A stretch of DNA of 50,699 nt from a phage. The stretch's first letter is position 1; every line of letters starts with the position of its first letter. This document shows positions 1,930-40,829 of this stretch, in pieces. The notes beneath the pieces were generated by a model. That model made no database searches. It was not told where the DNA came from and was given only the letters and a program-made list of their open reading frames with translations. The position numbers and the translations under genes were made by a program. The stretch is taken from the sequence record PZ150740.1. The stretch is one strand, 5' to 3'.

Positions 1930-2323
1930 GATTAATGATCTCCATAGCGAAAAATCGCATTAAATTTTTTCCCGCGCTTCTTGTCTTCGTTGCGCTTCTT
2001 GCGTTGCTTTTTCACAAGCTCCACATGCTCATCGTACCCGCGACGCTTCTTTTTGGTAATGATTTTTTCAAAGTTACGCATCATTTCCCCCTTTAGGTTT
2101 TCTCAAAATGGCGCACTTCATGAATGCGCCATAGCAAGAATCACCACTCAAATTTATGTTTGTCTCTGATGATCTCGTAAATTGCTAACCACACCCAAAC
2201 AAACCAGAAAGCGAGAACGATTTTATCGTCTTTGTCTGTCGCGTCAGAATATTTCACCAACGCGCGGAACGTGAATAAGCCTGAAATGTAAAGAAAAACA
2301 ACCAAAAAAAACAAGTAACCAAA

Positions 2324-9699: not shown

Positions 9700-9816
9700 A
9701 TGATAGATAAAGCTATTGATTTCTTTTTTTATTCGATTATTGGTGCGGTTGGCTTTTTGGTTACTGCTGCTGGCCTGGCTATTATCTTAGCTGTTATTAA
9801 GGGGATTATGCGATGA
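9700..9816 (+). CDS. small single-TM peptide (38 aa, not in ORF track)
   Basis: RBS GAGGTGG then ATG; hydrophobic core IIGAVGFLVTAAGLAIILAVI. Confidence 0.35.
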   Translation: MIDKAIDFFFYSIIGAVGFLVTAAGLAIILAVIKGIMR

Positions 9817-9977
9817 GTCAAGACGGATTTTTTGAACGCCTTCAAATGGCAGAAGATGCCGGACTAAATAAAGAGGCGGCGCTTGAGGTGGCATATAAAA
9901 TTAAGACTCTTGATGAGGCTTTAGGTGATATGGATATGGATCTGAATCAAGCGCAATATTTGCAGATCCCACTATGA
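9813..9977 (+). CDS. small acidic protein (54 aa, not in ORF track)
   Basis: ATGA overlap with upstream ORF; hand-translated MSQDGFFERLQ... Confidence 0.35.
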   Translation: MSQDGFFERLQMAEDAGLNKEAALEVAYKIKTLDEALGDMDMDLNQAQYLQIPL

Positions 9978-10171
9978 TTGTTAATGATTGTGGATGCGAT
10001 TTCGATCCTGGTTGTGCGCGCTGTTTTCCGTTTTGAGGTAATTACGATGTATAAAGGTTTAATATTCTCCCTATTGATGGATCTGGTAAAGCCGTTAAAG
10101 ATTGGGCTGATAATGGCTATAAGTGCATTTGCTTTAATGCTGACGGCGGCGATCACGGTGATTACCAGTCA

Positions 10172-10756
10172 GTGCGCATACAGCATGAGAATATCGAATA
10201 CGTTAACGTCTGGATTGATGAAAGATTTTACCACCGCGCGCGCTGGGAGGAATGGGGCATTCCTGACTTTATTATGGCATTTCCACCATGCACCGACCTT
10301 GCAAATAGCGGATCTCGCCATTGGGCCAAAAAACGCCTTGAGAATCCATCGTTCCAGGATGAGGCCGCCGACACTTGCAGGATCGCGGCTGATATAGCTG
10401 ATTATTTCGGTGTTCCTTACATGATCGAAAATCCGGTTGGCAAGTTGTCAACGTTATGGCGAAAGCCTGATTATACGTTCCATCCGTGCGATTACGCTGG
10501 CTATCTGCCGGAAGATGATAAACATCCCGACTTCCCTGATATTATTCCGGCGCGGGATCGCTACTTTAAGAAAACGTGCCTCTGGACTGGCAACGGCTTT
10601 GTTATTCCTCCACGCGCTTTAATCCTGCCGAAAGAGGAAGACAAAGATAATCCAGGCTGGGCCAAAACTGGCGGCAAGTCATCGCGCACAAAGATGATCC
10701 GCTCCCTCACTCCGCGCGGATTTGCTCGCGCCGTCTTTGAGTCAAACTCAAAATAG
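10172..10756 (+). CDS. cytosine-C5 methyltransferase-like protein (catalytic core; N-terminus uncertain, frame open from 10055)
   Basis: FPPC (PC-motif-like), ENP(V)G (ENV-like), PARDRYF and GNGFV motifs in C5-MTase order; no ATG for motif-I region. Confidence 0.4.
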   Translation: MRIQHENIEYVNVWIDERFYHRARWEEWGIPDFIMAFPPCTDLANSGSRHWAKKRLENPSFQDEAADTCRIAADIADYFGVPYMIENPVGKLSTLWRKPDYTFHPCDYAGYLPEDDKHPDFPDIIPARDRYFKKTCLWTGNGFVIPPRALILPKEEDKDNPGWAKTGGKSSRTKMIRSLTPRGFARAVFESNSK

Positions 10757-10796
10757 CACTTTTTGTTAAAAGCCAGGTGTAAAAACCTGGCATAAT
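10752..10796 (+). promoter_or_regulatory. box promoter unit (-10-like CATAAT)
   Basis: Box with 1 mismatch; spacer palindrome GCCAGG-tgtaaaaa-CCTGGC. Confidence 0.55.
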
Positions 10797-10825
10797 CACA
10801 TCGAACAAACAAAGGAGATCTGATC

Positions 10826-11026
10826 ATGAATGTTATCTGTAATGAAACCAACGTATTGATGAAAGGCCGTTTTAAAACGGTTTATCAGAAGATTGCAGGA
10901 AGTAATGATGTGATCGAGGTGGAAGAATTCAGGTTAAGACGCTTGTTAAGGGTAGCCGCTGGCTTCCAGCAAACCGAGATGATTACCGCGCCATTAACAC
11001 AAAAACCGTTCTTTGCACGTTTGTAG
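10826..11026 (+). CDS. hypothetical protein
   Basis: ORF track; box unit 10752-10796 upstream. Confidence 0.5.
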   Translation: MNVICNETNVLMKGRFKTVYQKIAGSNDVIEVEEFRLRRLLRVAAGFQQTEMITAPLTQKPFFARL

Positions 11027-11034
11027 ATCATAAC

Positions 11035-11211
11035 ATGCCGTGCAAAAAGCACTTTAAGCAGGGCAAGCGATACCGAATCGAGAAAGGGCGACCGCTTGGA
11101 AGCGTTGCGGGTTATGTTTTTGATGAGTGCGGCGACCGCTGGAACCTGTACCGTGAAGAGGTCGGATTCTCTGCTGGCGGCTGTTATCTGTTTGAGGGTA
11201 AATATCTGTGA
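11035..11211 (+). CDS. small Cys-containing protein (58 aa, not in ORF track)
   Basis: Hand-translated MPCKKHFKQGKRYRIEKGRPLG... Confidence 0.35.
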   Translation: MPCKKHFKQGKRYRIEKGRPLGSVAGYVFDECGDRWNLYREEVGFSAGGCYLFEGKYL

Positions 11212-11429
11212 TAAACAGTGAAAACCGTTACAAAGTAACGCATTCTACCACAAAGACTTTCAAGCCTGGCGATATAGTCAGGCCCATCAAAAAAACGGCG
11301 GTAGGTTGGCTGATTGGTTTTTCATATCATAAGGCGCTTTACTTTACGTTTAAGGATGGGATTACAGGAGAATGCTACAGCGACCGCCAGCCTGATCGAC
11401 TTCTGGTTGCAATAGAGCGGATCAAATAG
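11208..11429 (+). CDS. hypothetical protein
   Basis: ORF track; stop TAG inside box 11425-11445. Confidence 0.45.
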   Translation: MINSENRYKVTHSTTKTFKPGDIVRPIKKTAVGWLIGFSYHKALYFTFKDGITGECYSDRQPDRLLVAIERIK

Positions 11430-11469
11430 CACTTTTTGACAAAACGGGGTAGTATTGGGCCGTTAAAAT
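11425..11469 (+). promoter_or_regulatory. box promoter unit variant (TTGACA inside box; -10-like TAAAAT)
   Basis: AATAGCACTTTTTGACAAAAC; hairpin GGGCCG/CGGCCC overlaps -10. Confidence 0.5.
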
Positions 11470-11497
11470 TTACGGCCCACAAAGGAGAAGCTAACGA

Positions 11498-13078
11498 ATG
11501 TTTTCATTAGAAACGAACAAATTAACTCCACAGCAAATAATCGCTATGGCTGAAAGCCAGAACCTTTCACCAGTTCGCGTATCAATTCAGGCTAACGGCT
11601 ATCGCCAGTCGTCCAGCTTTTGGGGCGACGTGAAGGATGTAAATAGCGGTCATGATCGCTACCCCGTTATTTCTCTTGGTAATGATATTGATGTTGTAGG
11701 CAAGTTATCACGCAGTATTGCGCGATCCGTTCAATTTCCTGAATCATCGGCTTACATGCACTTTATCGGCTGCATTTCCGCCGCTATGCTTGGACGCTTT
11801 ACGGTTGACTATCACGGAACCGATCAGCCGACTGCGCTTTACGTGGTTACAAGCCAGCCGCCGTCAACTGGTAAATCTGCGATCAACAGTATGGCTATTG
11901 CTCCGATGATTGCGGAAGTTGAGAAGATCAACGAGCAACGCCGCAAGGAAAGAAAGAAAATACAGGCAAAGTTGGCAGGTCTTGCAAAGGAGATGAAAAG
12001 CGAAAGATCCGGCGCTGATATGGAATCTCTATACCAGGAAAAAGAGGATCTGGAGGAGAAGCTGGAAAAGATGTGTGATATAACTTTCCCTGTTTCAGAT
12101 ACAACTCCAGAAGGCTTGGCGAAAATCAACAACAAGCAAGGTAACTTTGCCGTAATATCTGACGAAGCAACAAGTATTAATAGCCTGTTAGGCTTGACCT
12201 ATGCAAATAGCGAAAGGAAGACTAACAGTGAGCTAGTGCTTAAGGCGTGGGATAATGGTCACGTATCAATTGCCCGTGCTAATGCTGACAATAATATGAG
12301 TTTTCGCGCGCTTGGATGCATGAGCGTTATAGCACAGGATGAAACGATAAGCGGTATCATGGACGCTGGATCGCGCGGTATCGGTGTGAGTGAGCGCTTT
12401 TTGTTGGTCCGCGAAGAATCATTCTTAGGCCGTCGCTCATTCATTGATGAAAATGGTGATTCTACCTATGAGGCGGTGGATTCTGAATTGAAAGCCCAAT
12501 ATTATCAATTGGTGCATAACATCATGAGCGAATCAAATATATCGCTGAAAATAAGCCGCTCAGCTATGCGAGTGCTCAACATTGCTCGTCAGGATATGGA
12601 ACCGCATCTTGCAGACGGCGGAAAGTATTCTCATACAATGTTACGCGGTGCGCTGGGTAAAATGGATAAACAGGTGATCAGGCTTGCTTCCGTCCTGCAT
12701 GTTATCCGTAACTGGTTTAATCCTGCCGGATACCCGCAGAAGTCGAAAGAGATCGACGTGGAAACAATGCAAGAGGCGTTGATCATGTTTCAGGAATTGA
12801 GCAAAACATACATTAGCGCCGCCAATGCTTCTGGTTATGCTGGTGATGATGCTGAAATGGGTAAATTGATTGAATTGATCACGAGGCACGGCAAGGCTAA
12901 CAAAGGGATTCTGAATATTCGCGCCCTGTACGAATCAGCGAGAAAGGTAAAACCTTTCGTTGGTCAGGCTGGCGTAATGAAGAGGATAGAGGGGCACTTG
13001 CTGCCAATGCTGGAAGAAAGAAATTATGTTTGTGTGATTAATGGTGTTATTTTTGTCAATCCAATACTGCTGGGATGA
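11498..13078 (+). CDS. large early protein, possible replication-associated ATPase
   Basis: 526 aa; deviant P-loop-like PPSTGKS; placement in early right block; family assignment uncertain. Confidence 0.35.
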   Translation: MFSLETNKLTPQQIIAMAESQNLSPVRVSIQANGYRQSSSFWGDVKDVNSGHDRYPVISLGNDIDVVGKLSRSIARSVQFPESSAYMHFIGCISAAMLGRFTVDYHGTDQPTALYVVTSQPPSTGKSAINSMAIAPMIAEVEKINEQRRKERKKIQAKLAGLAKEMKSERSGADMESLYQEKEDLEEKLEKMCDITFPVSDTTPEGLAKINNKQGNFAVISDEATSINSLLGLTYANSERKTNSELVLKAWDNGHVSIARANADNNMSFRALGCMSVIAQDETISGIMDAGSRGIGVSERFLLVREESFLGRRSFIDENGDSTYEAVDSELKAQYYQLVHNIMSESNISLKISRSAMRVLNIARQDMEPHLADGGKYSHTMLRGALGKMDKQVIRLASVLHVIRNWFNPAGYPQKSKEIDVETMQEALIMFQELSKTYISAANASGYAGDDAEMGKLIELITRHGKANKGILNIRALYESARKVKPFVGQAGVMKRIEGHLLPMLEERNYVCVINGVIFVNPILLG

Positions 13079-13470
13079 TTATGTTTTTGCTTGATCTGTA
13101 TAAATGGTGTGAGTCATACGACTGGTTTAACAGGCAGCACATAGCCAAATTTATCTATCAGCATAGAGAATGTGAGCGGCTCGCACGGGCCGCCGGACTT
13201 ACGCCGCGAATGTTCGCCAGCCTTGCATCTAAGGAATTTTGCGCAAGAATGATGACGGCTGGTTATATAGATGGGGTCTGCGGAAAATACTGGTCCAAAG
13301 GATCGTCAAAGCGGCCTTTCGGATTCGAATTGTATAGCCTGGATGGTATGCGCAACGACTGGATCAGGGATATGGCGAGAATAGGGGAGATGGGCGATGA
13401 TGAATTGTTCCAGGCAAAAGCTGATAGACAAGATCTTGAAGCACTGCGCCGTAAATTCAATATCACATGA
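13075..13470 (+). CDS. hypothetical protein
   Basis: ORF track; ATGA overlap with upstream gene. Confidence 0.5.
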   Translation: MIMFLLDLYKWCESYDWFNRQHIAKFIYQHRECERLARAAGLTPRMFASLASKEFCARMMTAGYIDGVCGKYWSKGSSKRPFGFELYSLDGMRNDWIRDMARIGEMGDDELFQAKADRQDLEALRRKFNIT

Positions 13471-13586
13471 GGATTTTATTCATGCTTTACTTACGCTACT
13501 TTATTCAGATATGCGCGCTTTTAGCACCACTGAACATGTTTTATGCAATGATGATGGTGTATTACTGGTTACGGTAAAGCGTATGG

Positions 13587-13631
13587 AATAGCATTTTTTG
13601 TTAAAACGCCCGGCCTAGTGTCGGGTATATT
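13587..13631 (+). promoter_or_regulatory. box promoter unit (-10-like TATATT)
   Basis: Box with 1 mismatch; 40-bp near-identity to unit at 16802-16846 on the opposite strand. Confidence 0.55.
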
Positions 13632-13667
13632 TGTTTCATCGAAACGAAACAACCAAAAGGTAAAATT

Positions 13668-13892
13668 ATGTCCAGCAAGTTTTTAGTAGTTCGCGTATAT
13701 AATCATGACAACGGATCTTCTGCTGAAATCCCAACAATTTACGACAGGGATTTTGGATGGAGTGAGCAATCGGCGGTTGAAAATGAGCGCAAGATTGCAG
13801 AACTGTACGGCGACACTTGCAGCATTGAAGTAAGGCAGTACGACGAATCGAACAAGCCAACAAACGAAACTCATATGTGGCCCGACGCATAA
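13668..13892 (+). CDS. hypothetical protein
   Basis: ORF track; box unit 13587-13631 upstream; terminator downstream. Confidence 0.5.
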   Translation: MSSKFLVVRVYNHDNGSSAEIPTIYDRDFGWSEQSAVENERKIAELYGDTCSIEVRQYDESNKPTNETHMWPDA

Positions 13893-13898
13893 AAATAA

Positions 13899-13926
13899 AG
13901 GAGGCATTAAGCCTCCTTTTTCTTTT
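13899..13926. terminator. rho-independent terminator (plus strand), overlapping 3' end of spanin gene
   Basis: AGGAGGC-attaa-GCCTCCT followed by TTTTTCTTTT. Confidence 0.5.
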
Positions 13927-14302
13927 CTCTCCAGTAAAGACAAATCAGCACAATTAACACAACCACGCATATGATTACTGGATCGTACCATCTGCCGTTA
14001 TTACCCTGCACGACCTGAATTTTGTCTGCCTTGATGGTATTGGCCTGAATGGTTGATGTTGTGAAATCCTTCTTGCTGGACGTGTCCACCTTGTCAACCG
14101 CAGATTCCTTTATTGTGGTTTCCTGTTTTGTGCTGGCGTCCTGCTTTGCTGTAATGCCAACTGTCTGCTTCACGTTCTCCGCGCCAGCCTGTGCTGTGAT
14201 TTCCGGCTTACTGCCGATTAATCCGGTCAGTGGCGTAACGCTTGAACATCCAGACAAGATCACCGCCATTGCGATTGGTGTAAGTAAAAATTTCTTCATC
14301 AT
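13907..14302 (-). CDS. unimolecular spanin (u-spanin)
   Basis: N-terminal lipoprotein signal (ILSGCSS) plus C-terminal TMD (VIICVVVLIVLICLYW); immediately downstream of endolysin. Confidence 0.6.
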   Translation of the reverse strand: MMKKFLLTPIAMAVILSGCSSVTPLTGLIGSKPEITAQAGAENVKQTVGITAKQDASTKQETTIKESAVDKVDTSSKKDFTTSTIQANTIKADKIQVVQGNNGRWYDPVIICVVVLIVLICLYWREKKKEA

Positions 14303-14303
14303 T

Positions 14304-14788
14304 TCAATCCATTGTGCAATATTTGTATTCGACCTTGCGCCTGTTAAGTAAGCCTTTAGACTTCTCGCGCTTTCCTGTTTTGGGGTTATGGTAATACGTC
14401 CAACGATAAAGCTGATCGCAAGCCTCGTTTAATTTCCCCTGGTTGATGAGTTTCAGCATTGTTGAATTTCTGAAAGCTCCAACTCCTGCATTATAAGTGA
14501 ATGAGTACATTGCTGCACGCATACTATCAGGAATGTCAACCTTAACTTGCTTGTCAACTTCTTTTTTAGCAACCTGGATATGTTTAGCCAACAAAGCATC
14601 ACACTCTTTTTAGTGTACGTTTTCCCCAGGATAACATCTGGTCCGGTTATTCCTGCGCAAACAGTCCATACTCCCGCAATATCTTTGTATGGCTTGTATC
14701 TTACCCCTTCGATCTCTTCAAGAAGTGGAGAAGTCAAGGCAACCGCAACGCCAAAGGCCGCAGCCGCTACCTTGTTCTTTATGCTCAT
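14304..14788 (-). CDS. SAR endolysin (lysozyme), reading frame interrupted by 1-nt frameshift near 14600-14612
   Basis: Two track ORFs in different frames; N-part has SAR-like TMD and [19 protein letters not shown]-part [17 protein letters not shown]; resembles P21-type lysozyme as recalled. Confidence 0.6.
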
Positions 14789-15003
14789 TACTTGCCCCTG
14801 ATTTCAATAGCTTTTTGAATATCACCTTTTTCGATCGCCTCGTGGAATTTTTTACTATCACGCCAGCGAAGGTAAGCGCCCCATGCACCGAATGCAGCCA
14901 TTAAAACAAAGCTGGCAATAGCAATGGTTAACTGCCCTGTAGCTGCGCTTGCGATAGATGAACCGCCAGATCCGGCGGTAGCTGCGTTAATAAAATCTTT
15001 CAT
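14788..15003 (-). CDS. holin (pinholin-like)
   Basis: 71 aa, two hydrophobic segments, Gly/Ala/Ser-rich first TMD; directly upstream of endolysin. Confidence 0.55.
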
Positions 15004-15147
15004 TTTTATTCTCCATATTAATTAAAGTCAATATATTGACCGAATGATAAACTTACATGGTAAAAAATTAAACAAAAAAAGAGGCGACAAACGCCGCCCC
15101 TTTGCAAGTTTTTGATTTAATTTGTCATTGATTTAAATAAAAATTCA

Positions 15148-16265
15148 TCAATTCATCATTTCTGGATAGTGAACAAATCGCCCCACTTCTCCATGCTCTT
15201 TGTCGTAAATGATAACCGCTGCACGGCGTCGAGATCTCCAGCCACCGCGCGCGGCGTATGCGTCTTTTGCCGCCAGGGTGCTATGCACCTCAACGATGCC
15301 AAGCGACGTTTCCGTCACAGTCTGGTGATGCCAGTGCCCTACGTGCGCATACATAGTTTTTGAGTTTCCGAAGTCCTCCCGCCAATCTGACGCGCACATC
15401 ATTAGCAAAGTCTCAGGTTTGCGCACTGTGTGCCCGTGATGGTACGCAAGGAAAGTTTTTCCGTATTGCGTGTGGTGAACAACGCGAGGAGAAACATCAA
15501 CGTAAACGCGCGGCTCGTTCTCATATGCTGCCGCCATTGCTGCGCGTAGCCAAATCATTCCTGATTGGTCGTGATTCCCCTCTACTACCTGGACCTCAAC
15601 ATGTTTATGCTTTAACAGCATTTTATTAATTGCGCGGCGCACTGCACGTATTGCAACGTAAACCAATTTTGCATATCGGCTATCTTGATCAAGTACGTGA
15701 CCGCTTGCAGGTGTCACCGCCTCCAGGCCGTCGCTATGCAGCATATCGCCACCAATCAGGATAACAGCCTTTTCGCTGTCCGGTGCGCACATCAAAGCAT
15801 AGTCGATAAAGTTATTCATAACGCGCTCTGCCGTCGCAGTATCCCAATTTTCGCCGCATTCGTGCTTATGGGCCATAGCGCCTAAGTGCATGTCAAAGAT
15901 CGGATACAATGAAAGCGTTTCATTATAGTTACGCTCCTGCAATGGAACTGGATCTAATCGCGGCACTTCCTCGCTAAATGCCTCCATTGCTGCGCGCATC
16001 AATGCCTCTAATTGCTCTTTATCCTTGCTGGTTTTTGTCCACTTGAGGATTATGTTGCCTTCTTTGTCAGTCATTACTGACTCACCATGAACACCAAAAC
16101 CAGGCGCTCCAATGGTCGATAACTGTCCTTGCTTTGCAAGACGCGCCGCGCGACGCTCGACGCTTCTCACATTCATTCCGTACTCTTGAGCGATCTGTTT
16201 ATATGTCTTACCTGCCGCCCGTTCGATCTTGAGTTGCTCATCTGTAATTTTTACATTTTTCATTC
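15148..16265 (-). CDS. calcineurin-like metallophosphoesterase with N-terminal HTH-like domain
   Basis: Motifs GGDMLHSDG, EGNHD, HHGH; N-terminal segment YKQIAQEYGMNVRSVERRAARL; start adjusted to MKNVKI. Confidence 0.6.
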
Positions 16266-16357
16266 TGCTACCTATCTCATTACTATATGGTACATAACTG
16301 TAACAGCGATGATAACGGGTAACGGTAGAACAAACAAGCGCCACATGATAACTATCC

Positions 16358-16600
16358 TCATTTATAATATTTGCGAGGCTCTCGGATTTTAGCCATTGCC
16401 TCTTTGAAATCAATTTTTGTTGGAACTGCTGGAACTCTCACCATTTTTCGCGGCCTTTCCTTGAGGAAAGTCATCTTATCGCCGCTAATTATGCTCACAT
16501 CTGCAATATCAAAGTATTGCGCGATCTTCTTTATATCGTCGGCTATTCCGCATTCTTTAGCGTGATTCCATACCGCATCTCTACCTTGCTCAACCTTCAT
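16358..16600 (-). CDS. hypothetical protein (start adjusted to MKVEQGR)
   Basis: ORF track frame. Confidence 0.45.
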   Translation of the reverse strand: MKVEQGRDAVWNHAKECGIADDIKKIAQYFDIADVSIISGDKMTFLKERPRKMVRVPAVPTKIDFKEAMAKIREPRKYYK

Positions 16601-16769
16601 GCTTATAATATGCCTCCGCTTGTTCAATTGGCGCGTGACCGTATGCAACTTTCAGTAAAAACATTGCGATGTCCCAATCAAACTGGAACCCTTCCTTTGA
16701 ACCGCCCTCTACTGAACCTTTTGCTACTTCTTGAGCAAGATTAAAAGCGCGTTTATCGAATACCACCAT
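16590..16769 (-). CDS. small protein (59 aa, not in ORF track)
   Basis: Hand-translated MVVFDKRAFNLAQEVAKGS...; RBS GAGGAAATAAAA; downstream of box unit. Confidence 0.4.
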   Translation of the reverse strand: MVVFDKRAFNLAQEVAKGSVEGGSKEGFQFDWDIAMFLLKVAYGHAPIEQAEAYYKHEG

Positions 16770-16801
16770 TTTTATTTCCTCATGTTTGCTTCGTTGAAAT
16801 A

Positions 16802-16846
16802 ATTATGCCCGACACTAGGCCGGGCGTTTTAACAAAAAATGCTATT
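16802..16846 (-). promoter_or_regulatory. box promoter unit (-10-like CATAAT)
   Basis: Box with 1 mismatch; near-identical to unit at 13587-13631. Confidence 0.55.
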
Positions 16847-17102
16847 AGTGGATCATTCCGTGCTGAAAATTCCACGAATCGACAAACTCTTGCATGTCAT
16901 TTCTTATTTGTTCGTGCCATTTTTCAAGCGGTAGTTTTCTTGTCTCCTCAAAGCTCATATCTAATGCGCTTGAAAATTCCCACGGATCGCAATCAATCAT
17001 CTTTTTCACGTTATGGTTTTTATCAAGTGCATCGCACACCATAGCGCGAAATAACAACCATTCGCCAGTTTCATTTAAATAAACGCTTCTCTCTTTTTTC
17101 AT
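16845..17102 (-). CDS. hypothetical protein
   Basis: ORF track; stop in box 16826-16846. Confidence 0.5.
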   Translation of the reverse strand: MKKERSVYLNETGEWLLFRAMVCDALDKNHNVKKMIDCDPWEFSSALDMSFEETRKLPLEKWHEQIRNDMQEFVDSWNFQHGMIH

Positions 17103-17106
17103 CGTG

Positions 17107-17832
17107 TTAGCTCCGTTTGCGTGCGCGACGTTCGGTTACAGAAGGGCAAATATCGCTGATCTTAACGTATCGCGTTTTCTGCTCCTCGCCTTCTTTAAGT
17201 TTGCGCATGACAAAAATCACGCTTCCCTTGTTGTTGCCCTGCACAGGCTCACCAGTCAATCCAGACACAAAGGCGATTCTTCCGGTGCGGGAGTATTCTA
17301 CTCCACCCTCTTCGTAAACCTCGCCAGTGATCCAGATGATTTCAGCCGCGTTTTTCTGCGCTTCATAAAACCATGCTGTAGAGTTGTCGGCTGGCAACAA
17401 AACATCAATTTGGTTGTTGTGCTCCATTTGCTCAATTGCTTTCTTGATAAATGGAGTTGGGTTGCTGTACGGTGGGTTAAGCCATACGTGCTTGTTGCTA
17501 CCCCACCAACGCTTTAAGCAGTTTGTTTCCTTGCTATAGAACTTCTCGCAAACTGCGTTTTCCTGGCTTGCTGCTGCGTCGAGATCGTATTCACCAAATT
17601 CTGATTCCATCCACTCCACGATCTCTTGAGGAGTGCTCCACATATCGCGCACAACGTCCGGCGTGGTGCTTCCAGCGTATCGGTTGCCGCTTACCTTATA
17701 ATATTGATTTGGCTTTACTGCCTGGTAATGGCCTCCAGTTGCAAGGGCATTCCCTATAAACGTTTCTCTCTCCAACTGCTCAAAGCTAACGAATGCGTCA
17801 TGAGTGTCTTTATCTAAAATATCTTTAGCCAT
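17107..17832 (-). CDS. dam: DNA N6-adenine methyltransferase (Dam-like)
   Basis: NPPY motif (WLNPPYSNP); box unit upstream. Confidence 0.75.
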   Translation of the reverse strand: MAKDILDKDTHDAFVSFEQLERETFIGNALATGGHYQAVKPNQYYKVSGNRYAGSTTPDVVRDMWSTPQEIVEWMESEFGEYDLDAAASQENAVCEKFYSKETNCLKRWWGSNKHVWLNPPYSNPTPFIKKAIEQMEHNNQIDVLLPADNSTAWFYEAQKNAAEIIWITGEVYEEGGVEYSRTGRIAFVSGLTGEPVQGNNKGSVIFVMRKLKEGEEQKTRYVKISDICPSVTERRARKRS

Positions 17833-17871
17833 TTCATTTCTCCGCTATTAAAAGCAATCTCGTGTTATTGA

Positions 17872-17916
17872 ATTATGGCGCAATCCATCGCGCCAGTTTT
17901 AACAAAAAGTGCTATT
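17872..17916 (-). promoter_or_regulatory. box promoter unit upstream of Dam gene (-10-like CATAAT)
   Basis: Perfect box 17896-17916; spacer hairpin GGCGC/GCGCC. Confidence 0.55.
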
Positions 17917-18232
17917 TAAGCATGTATTCAATAGCCAACTTAAACTGATTGAATCCGTAGGCGACCGCAGCGAATCCTCCTAAGCTGCGAACGCGACGCA
18001 AAAAAGCCTTTTGTTCATCGCTGACTGGTGATGCTTTCCCCTTGCCTGATTTATTTACTCGTTTGATCTCAATCGCTGCAAAGGGGTATTTTCCGTTTAA
18101 ACCAATCAGGATGATGAAATCGCTTACTCCCTTAACCAAGCCGGACTGCTGATCAATCATCGCCGTTACTTTAGACTTCTCATTCTCGTTTACCGTATGC
18201 CACGCCAGCAAGTAAGGATGAGCATAAGTCAA
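17912..18232 (-). CDS. VRR-NUC domain nuclease
   Basis: KGVSDFII ... IEIK ... SDEQKAFLRRVRSLGG pattern typical of VRR-NUC; start codon uncertain (TTG in track). Confidence 0.6.
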   Translation of the reverse strand: MTYAHPYLLAWHTVNENEKSKVTAMIDQQSGLVKGVSDFIILIGLNGKYPFAAIEIKRVNKSGKGKASPVSDEQKAFLRRVRSLGGFAAVAYGFNQFKLAIEYMLK

Positions 18233-18329
18233 CCACTGAAAACTATCTATCTGGTGATTAACTTCCTTTCTCGTGTCGGTTGATCTCTTTCGTAAAACTC
18301 AAGATAATCGCCTTTATCAGTTATAGCCA

Positions 18330-18860
18330 TTAAACAAACTCCCGTTTTGCAATGTTATCCTCACCTTTGCCGTTTTTGCGATGCGTTACGCGTACAGGAG
18401 GCATGATGTGATGAGCGTATGACATTATTTTACGCGCATTTCTATAGCTCGCCACCATACCAGCAATCTTGCGATCCGGTATGTGCTGCAATGCTATTTT
18501 TCTCCATATCGTCCGGCAAATGTTGCTTTCTGACTCAGGGAAAAATCTTTCGTATGCCTTGAACGTGTCGCCGTTGGCCTCAAGCTCATAGCAAAAAACA
18601 ATTCCTTTCTGGTTTTTCGTCATATCAACGCGGAAAGATTTAACGTTGCACCAATCGTTTTTGGTGTAGTGCTTACCGCTTAACTTCTCGTTAGGATCGA
18701 CAAGAGAAATATCGCAACAACGGCAAACTCTCGCCACTACGTCGTTTTTTGTTCCGCAACCGCGCTTGATTATCTTTTTTGTTCTCTGATCTACCTGGTC
18801 CTCGCAAATTCTGTAAGTCCAAAAATGCTCGCATCTCTTCCCGTTATCGTCTACGTGCAT
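18330..18860 (-). CDS. Cys-rich (zinc-ribbon-like) protein
   Basis: Multiple CxxC-like pairs (CEHF...C, CRCC). Confidence 0.45.
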   Translation of the reverse strand: MHVDDNGKRCEHFWTYRICEDQVDQRTKKIIKRGCGTKNDVVARVCRCCDISLVDPNEKLSGKHYTKNDWCNVKSFRVDMTKNQKGIVFCYELEANGDTFKAYERFFPESESNICRTIWRKIALQHIPDRKIAGMVASYRNARKIMSYAHHIMPPVRVTHRKNGKGEDNIAKREFV

Positions 18861-18909
18861 ACATCGGCGAGCGTAAAAGCTGTTTAGCGTTCCACATATC
18901 GGGCAAGTC

Positions 18910-20325
18910 TTAGGCTCTTTCCGTTTGTAAATCTCTTTTGAAATTGCGCTTGCTCAAGAATTCGATCGAATACAAATCCCCTAACTCATCCATAGTACCT
19001 GCAAAATCCAATACAAGATGATCTTTTTTCTTGAATCCCTGCTCAATGTGCCATTGCTTAAGCAGTCGCATACCGCGCCCCAAAAGCTGGATAAGCAATG
19101 TTAGAGATCCTATCTTTCTCAGTATTACCGAAGTATCCCAAAACGGAACGTTAACGCCAGTGGTAAGCGCCTGTACCTGGAAGATGTATTTTACTTTCCC
19201 CTCGTATGCCTCCCTCAGCCACTCTTTACGCTGATTATCTCCAGTTTTGCCAGTTATGATCCTGTATTCAACGCCTTGCGGCAGTGCGGCGGCGGCCTCC
19301 TTGCAGTGTCTTTCCCCTGCGCATGTAACTAAAACTCCGTTCCTGTCTTTGCATATCTCATGGACTTTAGCCATGATTTTCTGTGTCATTGTTGCGTCTT
19401 GATGGATCTTTTCTTCCATCTTGCGCAATGTTTTAGCGTCAAAGTCTGAAACGCCATCCTCGCTACTGGCTTCGAACTCTGAAAGGTCATACCCCAGGTC
19501 GCCTACGTCGCCGAAATTTGTTGGCACTACCGAACCGAATTTGATTAAGTAGTTTGTGTCTATGTTAGTAACCTGCTCACGCCAGAATCCCTTTTTGTTC
19601 TTATCTTCAACCAGTATTGGAACCACGCCGCGAAATTCAGATCCAGTCATACCGAATATTCGCAATTCGTGCCCGTATGCCTCGCGACACCTGCGCATCA
19701 TTTCCATGATTATTACGGTGTACTGTGTGCGCCCTGTTCCGAACATTCGATCGCCATTGGAATCAAATTGCTGTTCTTCTCCAATCAGTACAGGCAAATC
19801 CTTCTTAGTGGTCATCTGCTGGTAAGATTCATTATTTTCTATCGCGTCCGCGAGATCCTCCCAATCCACCTGGTGACATTCATCAATACCGATAACGTGC
19901 GGAACATAATCACCTAACGACTTAAACAATCCGTTTACTACAGTGCCCTCAGAACCGACTACGATCGGAAAGTATGCGCTTTTTGTTTTCAGTCCGGCAC
20001 AATAGATTGAGTTTGGCACGCCAAGATTGCTGATCTCTTCCGAATCCTGATCAACAATTTCAGCCTGGCGAGCAAGCACCATCATTTTCAATCCCATTTT
20101 GCGGCATTGCGCCGCAACCATCGCAAACATCAATGTTTTGCCAGCCGACACAGAAGCCTTAACAAAGAAAGGATGCTCATAGTTTTTCATGCGCTTTGCG
20201 ATCTCGGCATACGCAACGCACTGATAAGGATAAGGCACTATATTGCCAACCGTGAATCGCTCTTGGATGCTTTTTATTACTGCCTCGCCTAACGCCGATA
20301 TTTGTTTTTCTATATTTGGAATCAT
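18910..20325 (-). CDS. SF2 DNA helicase (DExH-box)
   Basis: Walker A SAGKT; GIDECHQ (DECH box). Confidence 0.8.
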   Translation of the reverse strand: MIPNIEKQISALGEAVIKSIQERFTVGNIVPYPYQCVAYAEIAKRMKNYEHPFFVKASVSAGKTLMFAMVAAQCRKMGLKMMVLARQAEIVDQDSEEISNLGVPNSIYCAGLKTKSAYFPIVVGSEGTVVNGLFKSLGDYVPHVIGIDECHQVDWEDLADAIENNESYQQMTTKKDLPVLIGEEQQFDSNGDRMFGTGRTQYTVIIMEMMRRCREAYGHELRIFGMTGSEFRGVVPILVEDKNKKGFWREQVTNIDTNYLIKFGSVVPTNFGDVGDLGYDLSEFEASSEDGVSDFDAKTLRKMEEKIHQDATMTQKIMAKVHEICKDRNGVLVTCAGERHCKEAAAALPQGVEYRIITGKTGDNQRKEWLREAYEGKVKYIFQVQALTTGVNVPFWDTSVILRKIGSLTLLIQLLGRGMRLLKQWHIEQGFKKKDHLVLDFAGTMDELGDLYSIEFLSKRNFKRDLQTERA

Positions 20326-21916: not shown

Positions 21917-21981
21917 GCACTTGAAAATGCTATTATCTGCATTATCATTAGCAAAAAGTGCTATTTAGGAGGATTTTACAA

Positions 21982-24612
21982 ATGGCGATTTACAGACAAG
22001 GCCAAGCGTCTATGGACGCGCAAGGTTATGTAACTGGTTACGATACAAAATGGCGTGAGCAATTAACATTGATTCGCCCAGGTGCAACTATTTTCTTTCT
22101 TACTCAACCTTTGCAAGCTGCTGTGATTACAGAGGTGATTAGCGATACAAGCATTCGCGCAATTACTACTGGCGGCGCGGTAGTCCAGAAGACAAATTAC
22201 CTGATCTTGCTTCATGACTCGTTGACGGTTGACGGGCTGGCGCAGGACGTAGCGGAAACATTGCGTTACTATCAAAGCAAGGAAACGGAGATTGCTGACG
22301 CGCTTGAATTTTTTAGAGATTTCGATCTTGATGGGTTGAAAGATCTTGTAAATCAGGTGAAACAAGGCGCTGAATCAGCAAAACAAAGCGCTAGTGCCGC
22401 AAAGACTTCTGAAACAAACGCTAAAACATCGGAAACTAATGCCAAAGCATCTGAAAATGCAGCCAATGCAAGTAAGAATGCGGCTAAAACATCGGAAACT
22501 AATGCTGCTAACTCGGCTAGTGCCGCAAAGACTTCTGAAACAAACGCCAAAACATCGGAAACTAATGCCAAAGCATCTGAAAATGCAGCCAATGCAAGTA
22601 AGAATGCGGCTAAAACATCGGAAACTAATGCTGCTAACTCGGCTAGTGCCGCAAAGACTTCTGAAACAAACGCCAAAACATCGGAAACTAATGCCAAAGC
22701 ATCTGAAAATGCAGCCAATGCAAGTAAGAATGCGGCTAAAACATCGGAAACTAATGCTGCTAACTCGGCTAGTGCCGCGAAGACTTCTGAAACAAACGCT
22801 AAAACATCGGAAACTAATGCTGCAAACAGTGCAAACAAGGCTAAAACAGAGGCTGATCGCGCAGCGGCTGCTGCTGGAAGCTCAGAGGCTCAGAATAGAG
22901 TGCCGTATGCTGGTGTAACATTACCTGCGCCTACTGGCGTAAGGGATATGCTCAAGCGGTTGCGCGATACTGTCAAAGGAGGATTCTGGCGCGTCGATGA
23001 TATTACGCAGTTCCCTTCTGGCGAGATGACGCCGTTCAGGTATGGTCCAGGGGTGTGCGGCGGCGCTGGTGACACATTTTTTGCGTTTAACGTTGACTAT
23101 CAGACCTCTCGCGTGAAGGTTTTCGCTGGAAACAATGCCGCGATTAACGGCTCATCTGGAAATGTGGGTGCCATTGAACTGGCGAAGCTGGGTGCTAACG
23201 GTGACGTGGCGATCGGAGACGGCGGGACAGGCGCATCGAACGACCAGGGAGCGCGCGCAAACCTTCAGGTCATGCATGAGCGCCGGGCAACGTTGGTTAG
23301 TGAAGACCTTAACATCCTTCAGGGTGATAAGGCTGGATTTTATTATACTAGCTTATCTGCCAACGCAACGCCGGAGCGTAATTATCCCGTTCAGGAAGCA
23401 GGTTGTCTACTTGTTCAGCGCACTGGCGCTAACGATCCTAAAAGCTGCATACAGACGTTTACAGGATACAATAGCGGGCGTCGTTTTATGCGATGGCTTA
23501 GTAACGCGACTACTGGCATCTGGTCGAAATGGTACGAGTTGTATAACGCGGGGTCGTCGCCGGAATATAACGCTTACGTGAGAGCTAAAAGCGGTGATCG
23601 AATCGTCGAAATGTTTGTAGGAGGCACGGATGTTGGCATTCGCAACCGCACGTCGCAGAAAGTGCTACAGCTGCGTGATGATGGAGGCCTTTCGTATGAC
23701 AACAAGCTGATCGCGTATAACGGACTTGTAGCCAGCGGCACCTTCGCTATGACCGTACCAAGCATTAAAGTTACAACCGCTAATGGCGGTTTTCGTATCG
23801 ACGGAACAGCATCAACAAACAACCAACCGCTGCACGTAACAGGGTACAACTCCGCAGGCACGCGTCTTTGGTTTTTAGGTAAAGATACTGGAACGAGTGC
23901 GTTATTTCTAAATGACATAACGAAAAGCAAGGTTGAACTTATCGATTCTGGGGTTGTGTTAGGTACGAAAGACTTTGCGGGAAAAGCATATGTACAGGCG
24001 GCGAGTTTAGAGATAGACCGACCGAGTGGTAAGTATTTCAAAATGCAGAACGACGGAAACTCATCACACCCTGCAAGTTTCAAATTGTGGGGGAACGGGT
24101 CAGATAGACCGTCTGTTATTGAGTGGGCTTTCGATAACGGCCCTGGGTGGGTTTTTTACGGTCAGTTAAATAAAGATAACTCAAAGCATCTTCAAGTTAA
24201 CGGCCCTGTAAATGCGACAGCATTCAATCAAGCATCTGACAGAGATCTTAAGGACAACATTGAGGAGATTGATAACGCAACTGAATCATTGCGCAAAATG
24301 AGCGGATACACTTACACGCTTAAGGAGAATGGTTTACCTTATGCTGGGGTAATTGCTCAAGAAGTAATGGAGGCAATACCGGAAGCTGTTAGCGGATTCA
24401 CTCGGTACACGGATCTTGCTGGTCCAACTAAGGATGGAAATCAGCTAGTTGGCGAGGAAAGATTCTTATCTGTTGATTATGGCGCTGTTACTGGATTGCT
24501 TGTGAAAGTATGCCGTGAAAGTGACGATCGCATAAGCAAACTTGAAAATGAGGTTGCAGAATTAAAAGATTTACTGTCAAAGCTAATCAACAATCCTACT
24601 ACTCTTAACTAA
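21982..24612 (+). CDS. tail fibre with tandem Ala/Ser/Thr-rich repeats and C-terminal intramolecular chaperone domain
   Basis: 42-aa repeat x3.4; C-terminal [13 protein letters not shown]...YAGVIAQEV...LENEVAELK typical of autocleaving chaperone domains. Confidence 0.8.
22390..22819 (+). repeat. intragenic tandem repeat, 126-bp unit, about 3.4 copies, near-identical
   Basis: Unit starts at 22390, 22516, 22642, 22768; only 1-2 substitutions between copies. Confidence 0.85.
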
Positions 24613-34351: not shown

Positions 34352-34414
34352 TTTCTACCTCCTTTTTGCTCATTGTAACATCAAGAAAAAAGCCGCACAA
34401 AGGCGGCTTTAAAA

Positions 34415-37449: not shown

Positions 37450-37487
37450 TTTAAAACCTCCAGATATTAAAAAGCGCCTTGCGGCGC

Positions 37488-40564: not shown

Positions 40565-40829
40565 CCTCTAGCTCTTTGCGGCTCTTACCCTCGGTAGGAT
40601 CTTTTTTGCGCTTCTTCTCCGCTTTCGCCTTGATTTGCTCGTTAATTTCGGAATTGTCTTTAACTTCCACATCGCCGCGAGCGATTAGGTATTCAACTGC
40701 GGAATCATTAATGCGATCGGATTCAATTTCAATTTCATCACCAGGATGATAACGCTTACCGTCCATAATAATCATGCAAACGCCAGTTACTTTAAGTTTT
40801 AAGGTTTTGCTCATTTTTGTGTACTCCAT
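40548..40829 (-). CDS. small structural-module protein
   Basis: ORF track; Lys/Glu-rich C-terminus; true start may be internal MSKTLKL. Confidence 0.4.

What the first reader, a model, noticed from the sequence alone, without database searches (positions are those of the whole stretch)
14304..14788. SAR endolysin reading frame is broken by a single-base frameshift in a homopolymer
The lysozyme is split between two frames (track ORFs 14453-14788 and 14304-14594). The N-terminal part carries the SAR-like TMD and catalytic-region sequence [18 protein letters not shown]...GKTYTKK; the C-terminal part resumes as (K)[11 protein letters not shown]...[19 protein letters not shown]. Restoring one base in the A5 run (minus strand ACTAAAAAGAGTGT, plus 14600-14612) gives a continuous lysozyme of about 160 aa. 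This is either a sequencing error, a genuine lysis-defective pseudogene, or a programmed frameshift.
Basis: seen in the sequence. Interest (0 to 1): 0.55.

Follow-up and report, generated by a model that had tools for sequence, protein, structure and literature searches.

The report
Endolysin frameshift is a sequencing artefact
The split lysis-enzyme gene is real in this sequence, but it is one of about nine single-base errors that this T1-like coliphage assembly alone carries, so it is almost certainly a sequencing mistake and not biology.

Summary
On the minus strand, a P21-R-type SAR endolysin (GH24 lysozyme) is split between two frames at an A5 run, window 14607-14611. Adding one A gives a continuous 161-aa protein that aligns end to end with phage 21 lysozyme.

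The window is a Warwickvirus genome (Drexlerviridae, T1-like), 96-98% identical to about 60 GenBank phages.
- All 60 relatives listed at this site have an indel-free span matching A6, and the endolysin is one 492-nt CDS in the eleven annotated records fetched.
- The A5 allele is absent from IMG/VR and metagenome contigs. A6 is found there 7 times.

The frameshift is not alone. In a 10-genome alignment of window 9700-19300:
- The window has 8 private 1-nt deletions, all in coding sequence. The nine relatives have none.
- Its private substitution count is ordinary (34, against 8-38).
- The deletions break the ATP-dependent helicase, VRR-NUC, Dcm methylase, two small ORFs and the endolysin (hit twice).
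- Seven of the eight lie in runs of 2 or more bases. Five lie within 2 nt of GATC or CCWGG (P about 2e-4).

A ninth indel (T8 run, 2304-2311) shifts another small gene.

Homopolymer and methylation-motif errors are the known signature of uncorrected long-read consensus. Programmed frameshifting and a true pseudogene are both poorly supported. Interest is low.

The parts
14788..15003 (-). Holin gene (71 aa), the first gene of the lysis cassette. Its stop overlaps the endolysin ATG (ATGA-type junction, TAATG).
   Evidence: ORF. It is 100% identical to the tonijn holin over 71 aa and is annotated as holin in all relatives.
14603..14788 (-). Endolysin codons 1-62 in the original frame. This part holds the SAR-like N-terminal segment [17 protein letters not shown] (residues 7-23) and the catalytic E27/D36/T42. 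In the sequence as given, this frame runs on out of frame to a stop at 14453.
   Evidence: tblastn q1-62 at 96.8%. Pfam positions 2-40. Aligned to 3HDE. Hydropathy and Gly/Ala/Ser/Thr content.
14607..14611 (-). A5 run (T5 on the plus strand), where one A is missing compared with A6 in all relatives. This is the frameshift site.
   Evidence: Alignment A1. blastn gaps. All 60 listed GenBank relatives span 59/59 nt (56/56 for the two SLUR29 records) with the A6 query. The A5 pattern has 0 hits in IMG/VR and 0 in metagenomes, against 3 and 4 for A6.
14304..14609 (-). Endolysin residues 61-161 in the -1 frame (the C-terminal lobe of the lysozyme fold), ending at TGA 14304-14306.
   Evidence: tblastn q61-161 at 100% identity to the tonijn endolysin. 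Pfam positions 43-125.
14306..14307 (-). Second private 1-nt deletion in the endolysin. The C of GATCTG (G of GATC on the plus strand) is missing. The stop codon moves up two codons and the ATGA overlap with the spanin start is lost. This is not a homopolymer; the missing base lies inside a Dam site.
13907..14302 (-). Unimolecular spanin gene (131 aa), with an N-terminal lipobox LSGC and a C-terminal transmembrane segment. Third gene of the lysis cassette, intact.
   Evidence: ORF. It is 97.7% identical to tonijn gp35. Annotated as u-spanin or unimolecular spanin in relatives.
9943..9944 (.). Private 1-nt deletion (GATCTT to GATCT) in the gp42-like small ORF upstream of dcm.
10074..10076 (.). 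Private 1-nt deletion (TTT to TT) in the 5' part of the Dcm-like cytosine methyltransferase gene.
   Evidence: (gp41 aligned only from residue 10).
10930..10931 (.). Private 1-nt deletion inside a CCAGG (Dcm) motif. It splits the gp40-like ORF.
18281..18282 (.). Private 1-nt deletion (GGATC to GATC). It splits the VRR-NUC nuclease gene.
18920..18969 (.). Two private 1-nt deletions 48 nt apart (CCC to CC at 18921, and GATCGAAA to GATCGAA at 18969), with a cluster of private substitutions. Together they split the 665-aa ATP-dependent helicase at about residue 460.
2304..2311 (-). T8 run on the minus strand where tonijn and JLBYU10 have CTTTTTT (7 nt). This is a 1-nt insertion that shifts the frame after codon 5 of a small gp63-like gene.
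   Evidence: (aligned only from residue 5).

Best explanation
The endolysin gene is an ordinary, intact SAR endolysin of a Warwickvirus (T1-like) coliphage that this assembly has mis-read. One A of an A6 run was dropped at 14607-14611, and one C was dropped near the stop codon at 14306/14307. These are two of at least nine single-base indel errors in the deposited or assembled sequence. The errors concentrate in short homopolymers and at or next to Dam (GATC) and Dcm (CCWGG) methylation motifs. That pattern is expected from uncorrected or poorly polished long-read consensus of natively methylated DNA, and this phage itself encodes Dam-like and Dcm-like methylases. In the real phage, the gene most likely encodes a 163-aa enzyme. 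By analogy with P21 R, that enzyme would be exported by the Sec system, held inactive in the inner membrane by its SAR segment, and released when the holin depolarises the membrane; none of this was tested here. What is shown: the indels, their uniqueness to this sequence, and their sequence context. What is inferred: the sequencing technology, and that the physical phage carries A6.
For: (1) The window is 96-98% identical to about 60 Warwickvirus genomes. All 60 listed relatives align to the A6 version over an indel-free span, 47 of them at 100% identity. No record matches the A5 version exactly. The endolysin is annotated as one 492-nt CDS in the eleven relatives fetched.
(2) The exact 25-nt A5 pattern has 0 hits in IMG/VR and 0 in JGI/ENA metagenome contigs. 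The A6 pattern has 3 and 4.
(3) In a 10-genome MAFFT alignment of window 9700-19300, the window has 8 private 1-nt deletions and each of the nine relatives has none. Private substitutions are 34 in the window against 8-38 in the relatives, so there is no sign of general decay. Three IMG/VR contigs carry the extra base at every one of these sites that they cover.
(4) All 8 deletions fall in coding sequence. They split the ATP-dependent helicase, VRR-NUC, the endolysin, the gp40-like and gp42-like ORFs, and truncate the dcm 5' end. The indel polymorphisms shared among relatives all lie outside or at the very start of the CDSs annotated in relatives (with CDS maps).
(5) Seven of the 8 deletions are in runs of 2 or more bases. 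Five of 8 are within 2 nt of GATC or CCWGG, against a background of 8.3% (binomial P = 1.8e-4). The window's private substitutions are also enriched near these motifs (7 of 34, P = 0.012), unlike those of eight of the nine relatives.
(6) Nanopore consensus errors concentrate at Dcm motifs and then in homopolymers (Wick et al. 2019, PMC6591954).
(7) The two endolysin pieces are 96.8% and 100% identical in protein to the tonijn endolysin, so there is no relaxed constraint.
Against: No reads or quality values are available, so the error is inferred and not observed. The source record could not be identified, so the sequencing platform is unknown. Eight of the nine indels cluster in 9.9-19 kb, while the structural-gene half of the genome is clean. 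A uniform error process does not explain this. Three of the 8 deletions are not near a methylation motif. The AAA-AAG context left by the deletion is shift-prone in E. coli, so a real A5 allele could be partly tolerated.
Confidence: 0.9

Rival explanations
1. The deletion is a genuine inactivating mutation. The sequenced genome would be lysis-defective, from a non-viable or recently crippled phage carrying a real endolysin pseudogene.
For: The sequence as given encodes only a 62-residue native N-terminal piece followed by 49 out-of-frame residues, plus a separate C-terminal ORF. Homopolymer slippage is also a real mutational mechanism.
Against: The same genome would also need seven more private frameshifts, in the helicase, VRR-NUC, dcm and small ORFs, while showing a normal number of private substitutions (34 against 8-38). 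The broken pieces show no missense decay (100% and 96.8% identity). Frameshifts without any excess of substitutions are not what natural decay produces. Drexlerviridae are virulent phages propagated by plaque formation (own knowledge). The enrichment at GATC and CCWGG has no mutational rationale for 1-nt deletions. The allele appears in no other isolate or metagenome.
Confidence: 0.06
2. The A5 allele is real, and the endolysin is made by -1 ribosomal frameshifting or transcriptional slippage at ACU-AAA-AAG. Lys-tRNA would slip from AAG back onto AAA, and the next codon read would be GAG. This gives exactly the wild-type sequence T-K-K-E-C-D and lowers the endolysin dose.
For: The C-terminal frame is -1 relative to the N-terminal frame, and a -1 shift after AAA-AAG regenerates the ancestral protein sequence exactly. 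A-AAG is a known shift-prone motif in E. coli, as in dnaX and IS elements (own knowledge).
Against: The heptamer is U-AAA-AAG, not A-AAA-AAG, so the P-site tRNA cannot re-pair fully. The 77 nt downstream have no structure better than shuffled sequence (z = 0.41; 124 of 200 shuffles fold at least as well). AAAAAG occurs 103 times in the window. The two-frame layout is not conserved: in the relatives fetched, the gene is annotated as a single CDS, and all 60 listed relatives have the A6 length. The other private indels in this genome are not at slippery sites.
Confidence: 0.02

Closest known systems
Phage 21 R (R21) SAR endolysin, PDB 3HDE/3HDF, and its E. coli DLP12 prophage homologue RrrD, PDB 4ZPU
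   Same: The restored protein aligns over residues 2-159 with 3HDE (E = 5.6e-47) and 4ZPU (E = 4.9e-46), with roughly half the aligned positions identical in the printed alignment. Both share the GH24 Phage_lysozyme domain and the E-x8-D-x5-T spacing (E27, D36, T42). Both have an N-terminal weakly hydrophobic Ala/Gly-rich segment: mean Kyte-Doolittle 2.0 against 2.3, and G+A+S+T fraction 0.53 against 0.59.
   Different: The linker between the SAR segment and the catalytic Glu is six residues shorter, and there is a 6-residue insertion near the C-terminus. In the window as given, the ORF is split by the missing A.
Endolysins of Warwickvirus and other T1-like Drexlerviridae (e.g. tonijn YP_009901256.1, JK16 YP_009900896.1), in the holin / endolysin / u-spanin cassette
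   Same: Same gene order and about 98% nucleotide identity over the cassette. The protein pieces are 96.8% and 100% identical.
   Different: Relatives have A6, a 492-nt single CDS, and a 4-nt ATGA overlap with the spanin gene. The window lacks one A and one C.
dnaX / IS-type programmed -1 ribosomal frameshift sites (A-AAA-AAG with stimulators)
   Same: The AAA-AAG codon pair is in the zero frame, and the downstream ORF is in the -1 frame.
   Different: There is no full X-XXY-YYZ heptamer, no downstream structure and no conservation in relatives.
Long-read (nanopore) consensus errors at homopolymers and methylated motifs
   Same: The private 1-nt indels sit in short runs and at or next to GATC and CCWGG. 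The literature reports that consensus errors concentrate in Dcm motifs and then in homopolymers (PMC6591954).
   Different: The platform used for this sequence is unknown. The regional clustering in 9.9-19 kb is not explained.

Membership tests
SAR endolysin, R21 type (GH24 lysozyme) | Complete Phage_lysozyme (PF00959 / GH24) domain in one polypeptide | tested here: not met
   In the window as given, the domain is split: profile positions 2-40 in ORF 14453-14788 and 43-125 in ORF 14304-14594. With one A restored it is met, at positions 2-125 and 134 bits. The failure is attributed to sequence error, not to the gene.
SAR endolysin, R21 type (GH24 lysozyme) | Catalytic Glu-x8-Asp/Cys-x5-Thr triad | tested here: met
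   E27, D36 and T42 in [16 protein letters not shown] align with EGVSYIPYKDIVGVWT of 3HDE.
SAR endolysin, R21 type (GH24 lysozyme) | N-terminal weakly hydrophobic signal-anchor-release segment, rich in Gly/Ala/Ser/Thr | tested here: met
   Residues 7-23, [17 protein letters not shown], have mean Kyte-Doolittle 2.01 and G+A+S+T fraction 0.53. The R21 values are 2.29 and 0.59. The segment aligns with the R21 SAR segment.
SAR endolysin, R21 type (GH24 lysozyme) | Sec-dependent export, membrane tethering, and release on depolarisation | not testable with these tools
   This needs fractionation and lysis experiments.
Programmed -1 ribosomal frameshift | Slippery heptamer X-XXY-YYZ in the zero frame | tested here: not met
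   The sequence is U-AAA-AAG (ACU AAA AAG). Only the A-site codon can re-pair perfectly.
Programmed -1 ribosomal frameshift | Downstream stimulatory RNA structure | tested here: not met
   The 77 nt downstream fold to an MFE of -12.5 kcal/mol, z = 0.41. 124 of 200 shuffles fold at least as well.
Programmed -1 ribosomal frameshift | Two-frame architecture conserved among relatives | tested here: not met
   All 60 listed relatives have the A6 length. The gene is a single annotated CDS in the eleven relatives fetched. The A5 pattern has 0 hits in IMG/VR and 0 in metagenome contigs.
Sequencing or assembly indel artefact | Several private single-base indels in one assembly that are absent from all close relatives | tested here: met
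   The window has 8 private deletions, and each of nine relatives has none over 9.6 kb. There is also 1 insertion at 2304-2311. They break 6-7 genes.
Sequencing or assembly indel artefact | Indels in error-prone contexts (homopolymers, modified-base motifs) | tested here: met
   Seven of 8 lie in runs of 2 or more bases. Five of 8 lie within 2 nt of GATC or CCWGG, P = 1.8e-4. Literature context.
Sequencing or assembly indel artefact | Disagreement with raw reads or independent re-sequencing | not testable with these tools
   No reads are available, and the source record was not found.
Decaying pseudogene | Excess substitutions or relaxed constraint in the broken gene or genome | tested here: not met
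   Private substitutions number 34 against 8-38 in relatives. The endolysin pieces are 96.8% and 100% identical in protein. There are no internal stops other than those caused by the shifts.

The most novel reading that the evidence does not exclude
The A5 allele is physically real in this phage. A working endolysin would be made at a low level by -1 slippage of Lys-tRNA on AAA-AAG (or by polymerase slippage on the A run), which regenerates the exact wild-type sequence. That would make this a naturally occurring leaky frameshift that throttles endolysin dose and lysis timing.
Probability: 0.02. Interest if true: 0.4.

Novelty: not a real feature. Interest (0 to 1): 0.05.

Why it matters
The main value is as a quality flag. 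This genome sequence carries at least nine single-base indel errors, which would create false pseudogenes and split ORFs in any annotation: endolysin, helicase, VRR-NUC nuclease, Dcm methylase and three small ORFs. The clustering of errors at Dam and Dcm motifs in a phage that encodes its own Dam and Dcm methylases is a practical warning. Phage genomes assembled from native-DNA long reads need short-read or methylation-aware polishing before frameshifts are read as biology. If the frameshift were real, it would be a modest curiosity about leaky decoding and lysis timing.

Tried and rejected
1. I tried to find the source record, or any other assembly encoding the same truncated 111-aa product or the window's 884-aa tail fibre, by exact look-up. 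Nothing is on record, so the platform and authors stay unknown.
2. I scanned IMG/VR and metagenome contigs for the A5 allele and found none. The A6 positive control was found 3 and 4 times.
3. I looked for a frameshift-stimulating RNA structure downstream of the A run and found none. I also checked whether AAAAAG is unusual here. It occurs 103 times, so it is not a distinctive signal.
4. I considered general pseudogenisation. It was rejected because private substitutions are not elevated and the gene pieces are 97-100% identical to relatives.
5. I considered that the indels could be lineage polymorphisms. This was rejected because the indels shared among relatives all lie outside or at the very start of annotated CDSs, while the window-only ones are all coding.
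6. I did not run the large protein-database searches or structure prediction. The GenBank comparisons and the PDB sequence match already settle the gene's identity.

Full report
**What is in the sequence**

On the minus strand the window carries a three-gene lysis cassette:
- a 71-aa holin at 14788-15003;
- a lysozyme-type endolysin starting at 14788;
- a 131-aa lipoprotein with a C-terminal membrane segment at 13907-14302, which is a unimolecular spanin.

ORF 14453-14788 (111 aa) carries [61 protein letters not shown] and then runs out of frame. ORF 14304-14594 carries ...LAKHIQ...[19 protein letters not shown]... through to the stop.

Pfam PF00959 matches the first ORF at profile positions 2-40 and the second at 43-125. 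With one A added, the protein matches 2-125 in one stretch at 134 bits.

The run is AAAAA at 14607-14611, read on the minus strand. The restored 161-aa protein aligns without a gap over residues 2-159 with phage 21 lysozyme R (PDB 3HDE, E = 5.6e-47) and with E. coli RrrD (4ZPU). The junction TYTKKECDALL aligns with TYTKAECKALL.

**What the gene is**

The restored protein has the E-x8-D-x5-T spacing of the R21 family (E27, D36, T42). It also has an Ala/Gly-rich, weakly hydrophobic N-terminal segment comparable to the R21 SAR segment. It sits between a small holin and a u-spanin, as in T1-like phages. Relatives annotate these genes as holin, endolysin and u-spanin. It is an ordinary SAR endolysin.

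**What the genome is**

The window is a Warwickvirus genome (Drexlerviridae, Tempevirinae). It is 96-98% identical over most of its length to about 60 GenBank coliphages, including tonijn, JK16, swan01, vB_EcoS-95, SECphi27 and the JLBYU series. No record in the collection is identical to it.

**Is the A5 allele shared?**

It is not.
- The four-way alignment shows A6 in JK16, tonijn and SECphi27.
- A 59-nt query carrying A6 matches 47 of 61 records at 100%. All 60 listed records match over an indel-free span.
- The 58-nt A5 query matches none exactly.
- An exact 25-nt A5 pattern has no hit in IMG/VR or in the metagenome contig collection. The A6 pattern has 3 and 4 hits.
- In the eleven annotated relatives I fetched, the endolysin is one 492-nt CDS whose TGA overlaps the spanin ATG.

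**The frameshift is not alone**

The same alignment shows a second 1-nt deletion in the gene. GATCTGAAATGA has become GATTGAAATGA at 14306/14307. This removes the last two residues and the ATGA overlap.

Whole-window blastn against tonijn and JLBYU10 shows a series of 1-nt deletions between 9.9 and 19 kb. tblastn with the 80 annotated tonijn proteins shows five genes split between frames, plus two genes that lose their first residues:
- the 665-aa ATP-dependent helicase;
- the VRR-NUC nuclease;
- the endolysin;
- the gp40-like ORF;
- the gp42-like ORF;
- the Dcm-like methylase, which loses its first 9 residues;
- the gp63-like ORF, which loses its first 4 residues.

All structural, packaging and other replication genes are intact.

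A 10-genome MAFFT alignment of window 9700-19300 separates two kinds of indel. The indels shared by several genomes lie outside or at the very start of the CDSs annotated in relatives (13655, 15008, 15024, 15062, 15074, 16769, 17832). The indels private to the window all lie in coding sequence (9943, 10074, 10930, 14307, 14607, 18282, 18921, 18969).

| Genome | Private 1-nt deletions | Private substitutions |
|---|---|---|
| Window | 8 | 34 |
| Each of nine relatives | 0 | 8-38 |

Three uncultivated IMG/VR contigs carry the extra base at every one of these sites that they cover. There are no premature stops other than those produced by the shifts. A ninth indel is a 1-nt insertion: a T8 run at 2304-2311 against CTTTTTT in tonijn and JLBYU10. 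It shifts the frame of the gp63-like small gene.

**Context of the private deletions**

- Seven of the eight lie in runs of two or more identical bases.
- Five of the eight lie within 2 nt of GATC or CCWGG. Only 8.3% of positions do, giving a binomial P of 1.8e-4.
- The window's private substitutions are also enriched near these motifs (7 of 34, P = 0.012). Those of eight of the nine relatives are not, and EcoS-95 is borderline at P = 0.064.

The phage encodes Dam-like and Dcm-like methylases, and its usual hosts are dam+ dcm+ (own knowledge). Nanopore consensus errors concentrate in Dcm motifs and then in homopolymers (Wick et al. 2019, PMC6591954).

I therefore infer a long-read or otherwise indel-prone assembly that was not fully polished. 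This is an inference, because the platform is unknown and the source record could not be found.

**Rival readings**

A genuine lysis-defective pseudogene would require the same genome to have also acquired frameshifts in its helicase, nuclease and methylase genes. It would have to do so with no excess of substitutions and no missense decay. The endolysin pieces are 96.8% and 100% identical to tonijn. That is not how decay looks, and such a phage should not propagate.

A programmed -1 frameshift is formally possible. The C-terminal frame is -1, and a slip of Lys-tRNA from AAG to AAA would regenerate T-K-K-E-C-D exactly. Against it:
- the heptamer is U-AAA-AAG, not a full slippery heptamer;
- there is no downstream structure (z = 0.41);
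- AAAAAG occurs 103 times in the window;
- no relative has the two-frame layout.

I give these readings about 6% and 2%.

**What remains unexplained**

Eight of the nine indels lie within 9.9-19 kb, and the structural half of the genome is clean. Uneven coverage or partial polishing could cause this, but I cannot test it.

**Verdict**

The frameshift is not a real biological feature. The gene underneath is a typical member of a known family. Interest is low, apart from flagging that this genome sequence needs correction.

Noticed in passing
window 14306-14307: A second private 1-nt deletion in the endolysin, inside a GATC site. It moves the stop codon up two codons and removes the ATGA stop/start overlap with the spanin gene that all aligned relatives have.
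   Followed up: yes
window 9943, 10074, 10930, 18282, 18921, 18969: Six further window-only 1-nt deletions. They split or truncate the gp42-like ORF, the Dcm-like methylase, the gp40-like ORF, the VRR-NUC nuclease and the ATP-dependent helicase (hit twice, 48 nt apart, with a cluster of private substitutions at 18911-18972).
   Followed up: yes
window 2304-2311: A T8 run on the minus strand where tonijn and JLBYU10 have CTTTTTT. This 1-nt insertion shifts the frame after codon 5 of a small hydrophobic gp63-like gene. It was compared with only two relatives.
   Followed up: partly
window 9700-19300: The window-only deletions, and to a lesser degree the window-only substitutions, are enriched within 2 nt of Dam (GATC) and Dcm (CCWGG) motifs. 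This suggests methylation-related basecalling errors. The phage encodes both kinds of methylase.
   Followed up: yes
window 13907-14302: The third lysis gene is a unimolecular spanin of the T1 gp11 type: lipobox LSGC near the N-terminus, a C-terminal transmembrane segment, and no embedded Rz1-like gene. It is intact and 97.7% identical to tonijn gp35.
   Followed up: partly
window 21958-24612: An 884-aa lateral tail-fibre ORF. Its N-terminal 148 residues are 92% identical to the tonijn protein, but the rest is only 30-47% identical, and there is no nucleotide match to tonijn over about 22.4-24.1 kb. This is probably a host-range module swap.
   Followed up: no
window 20926, 34411-34414, 37469-37474, 40814-40818: More homopolymer length differences from both tonijn and JLBYU10, all outside the CDSs annotated in the two relatives. 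They may be natural polymorphisms or further errors. The one at 37469-37474 lies just upstream of the tape-measure gene start.
   Followed up: partly
whole window: AAAAAG is over-represented on both strands: 103 matches against 70 expected from shuffles, and none of 100 shuffles reached 103. This probably reflects Lys-rich, A-rich coding sequence.
   Followed up: no
window 1 / 50699: The window is the same length as a whole genome of this genus. It is circularly permuted and reverse-oriented compared with tonijn: window 1 corresponds to tonijn 43419 and window 50699 to tonijn 43420. The window therefore appears to be a complete genome opened at an arbitrary point.
   Followed up: partly
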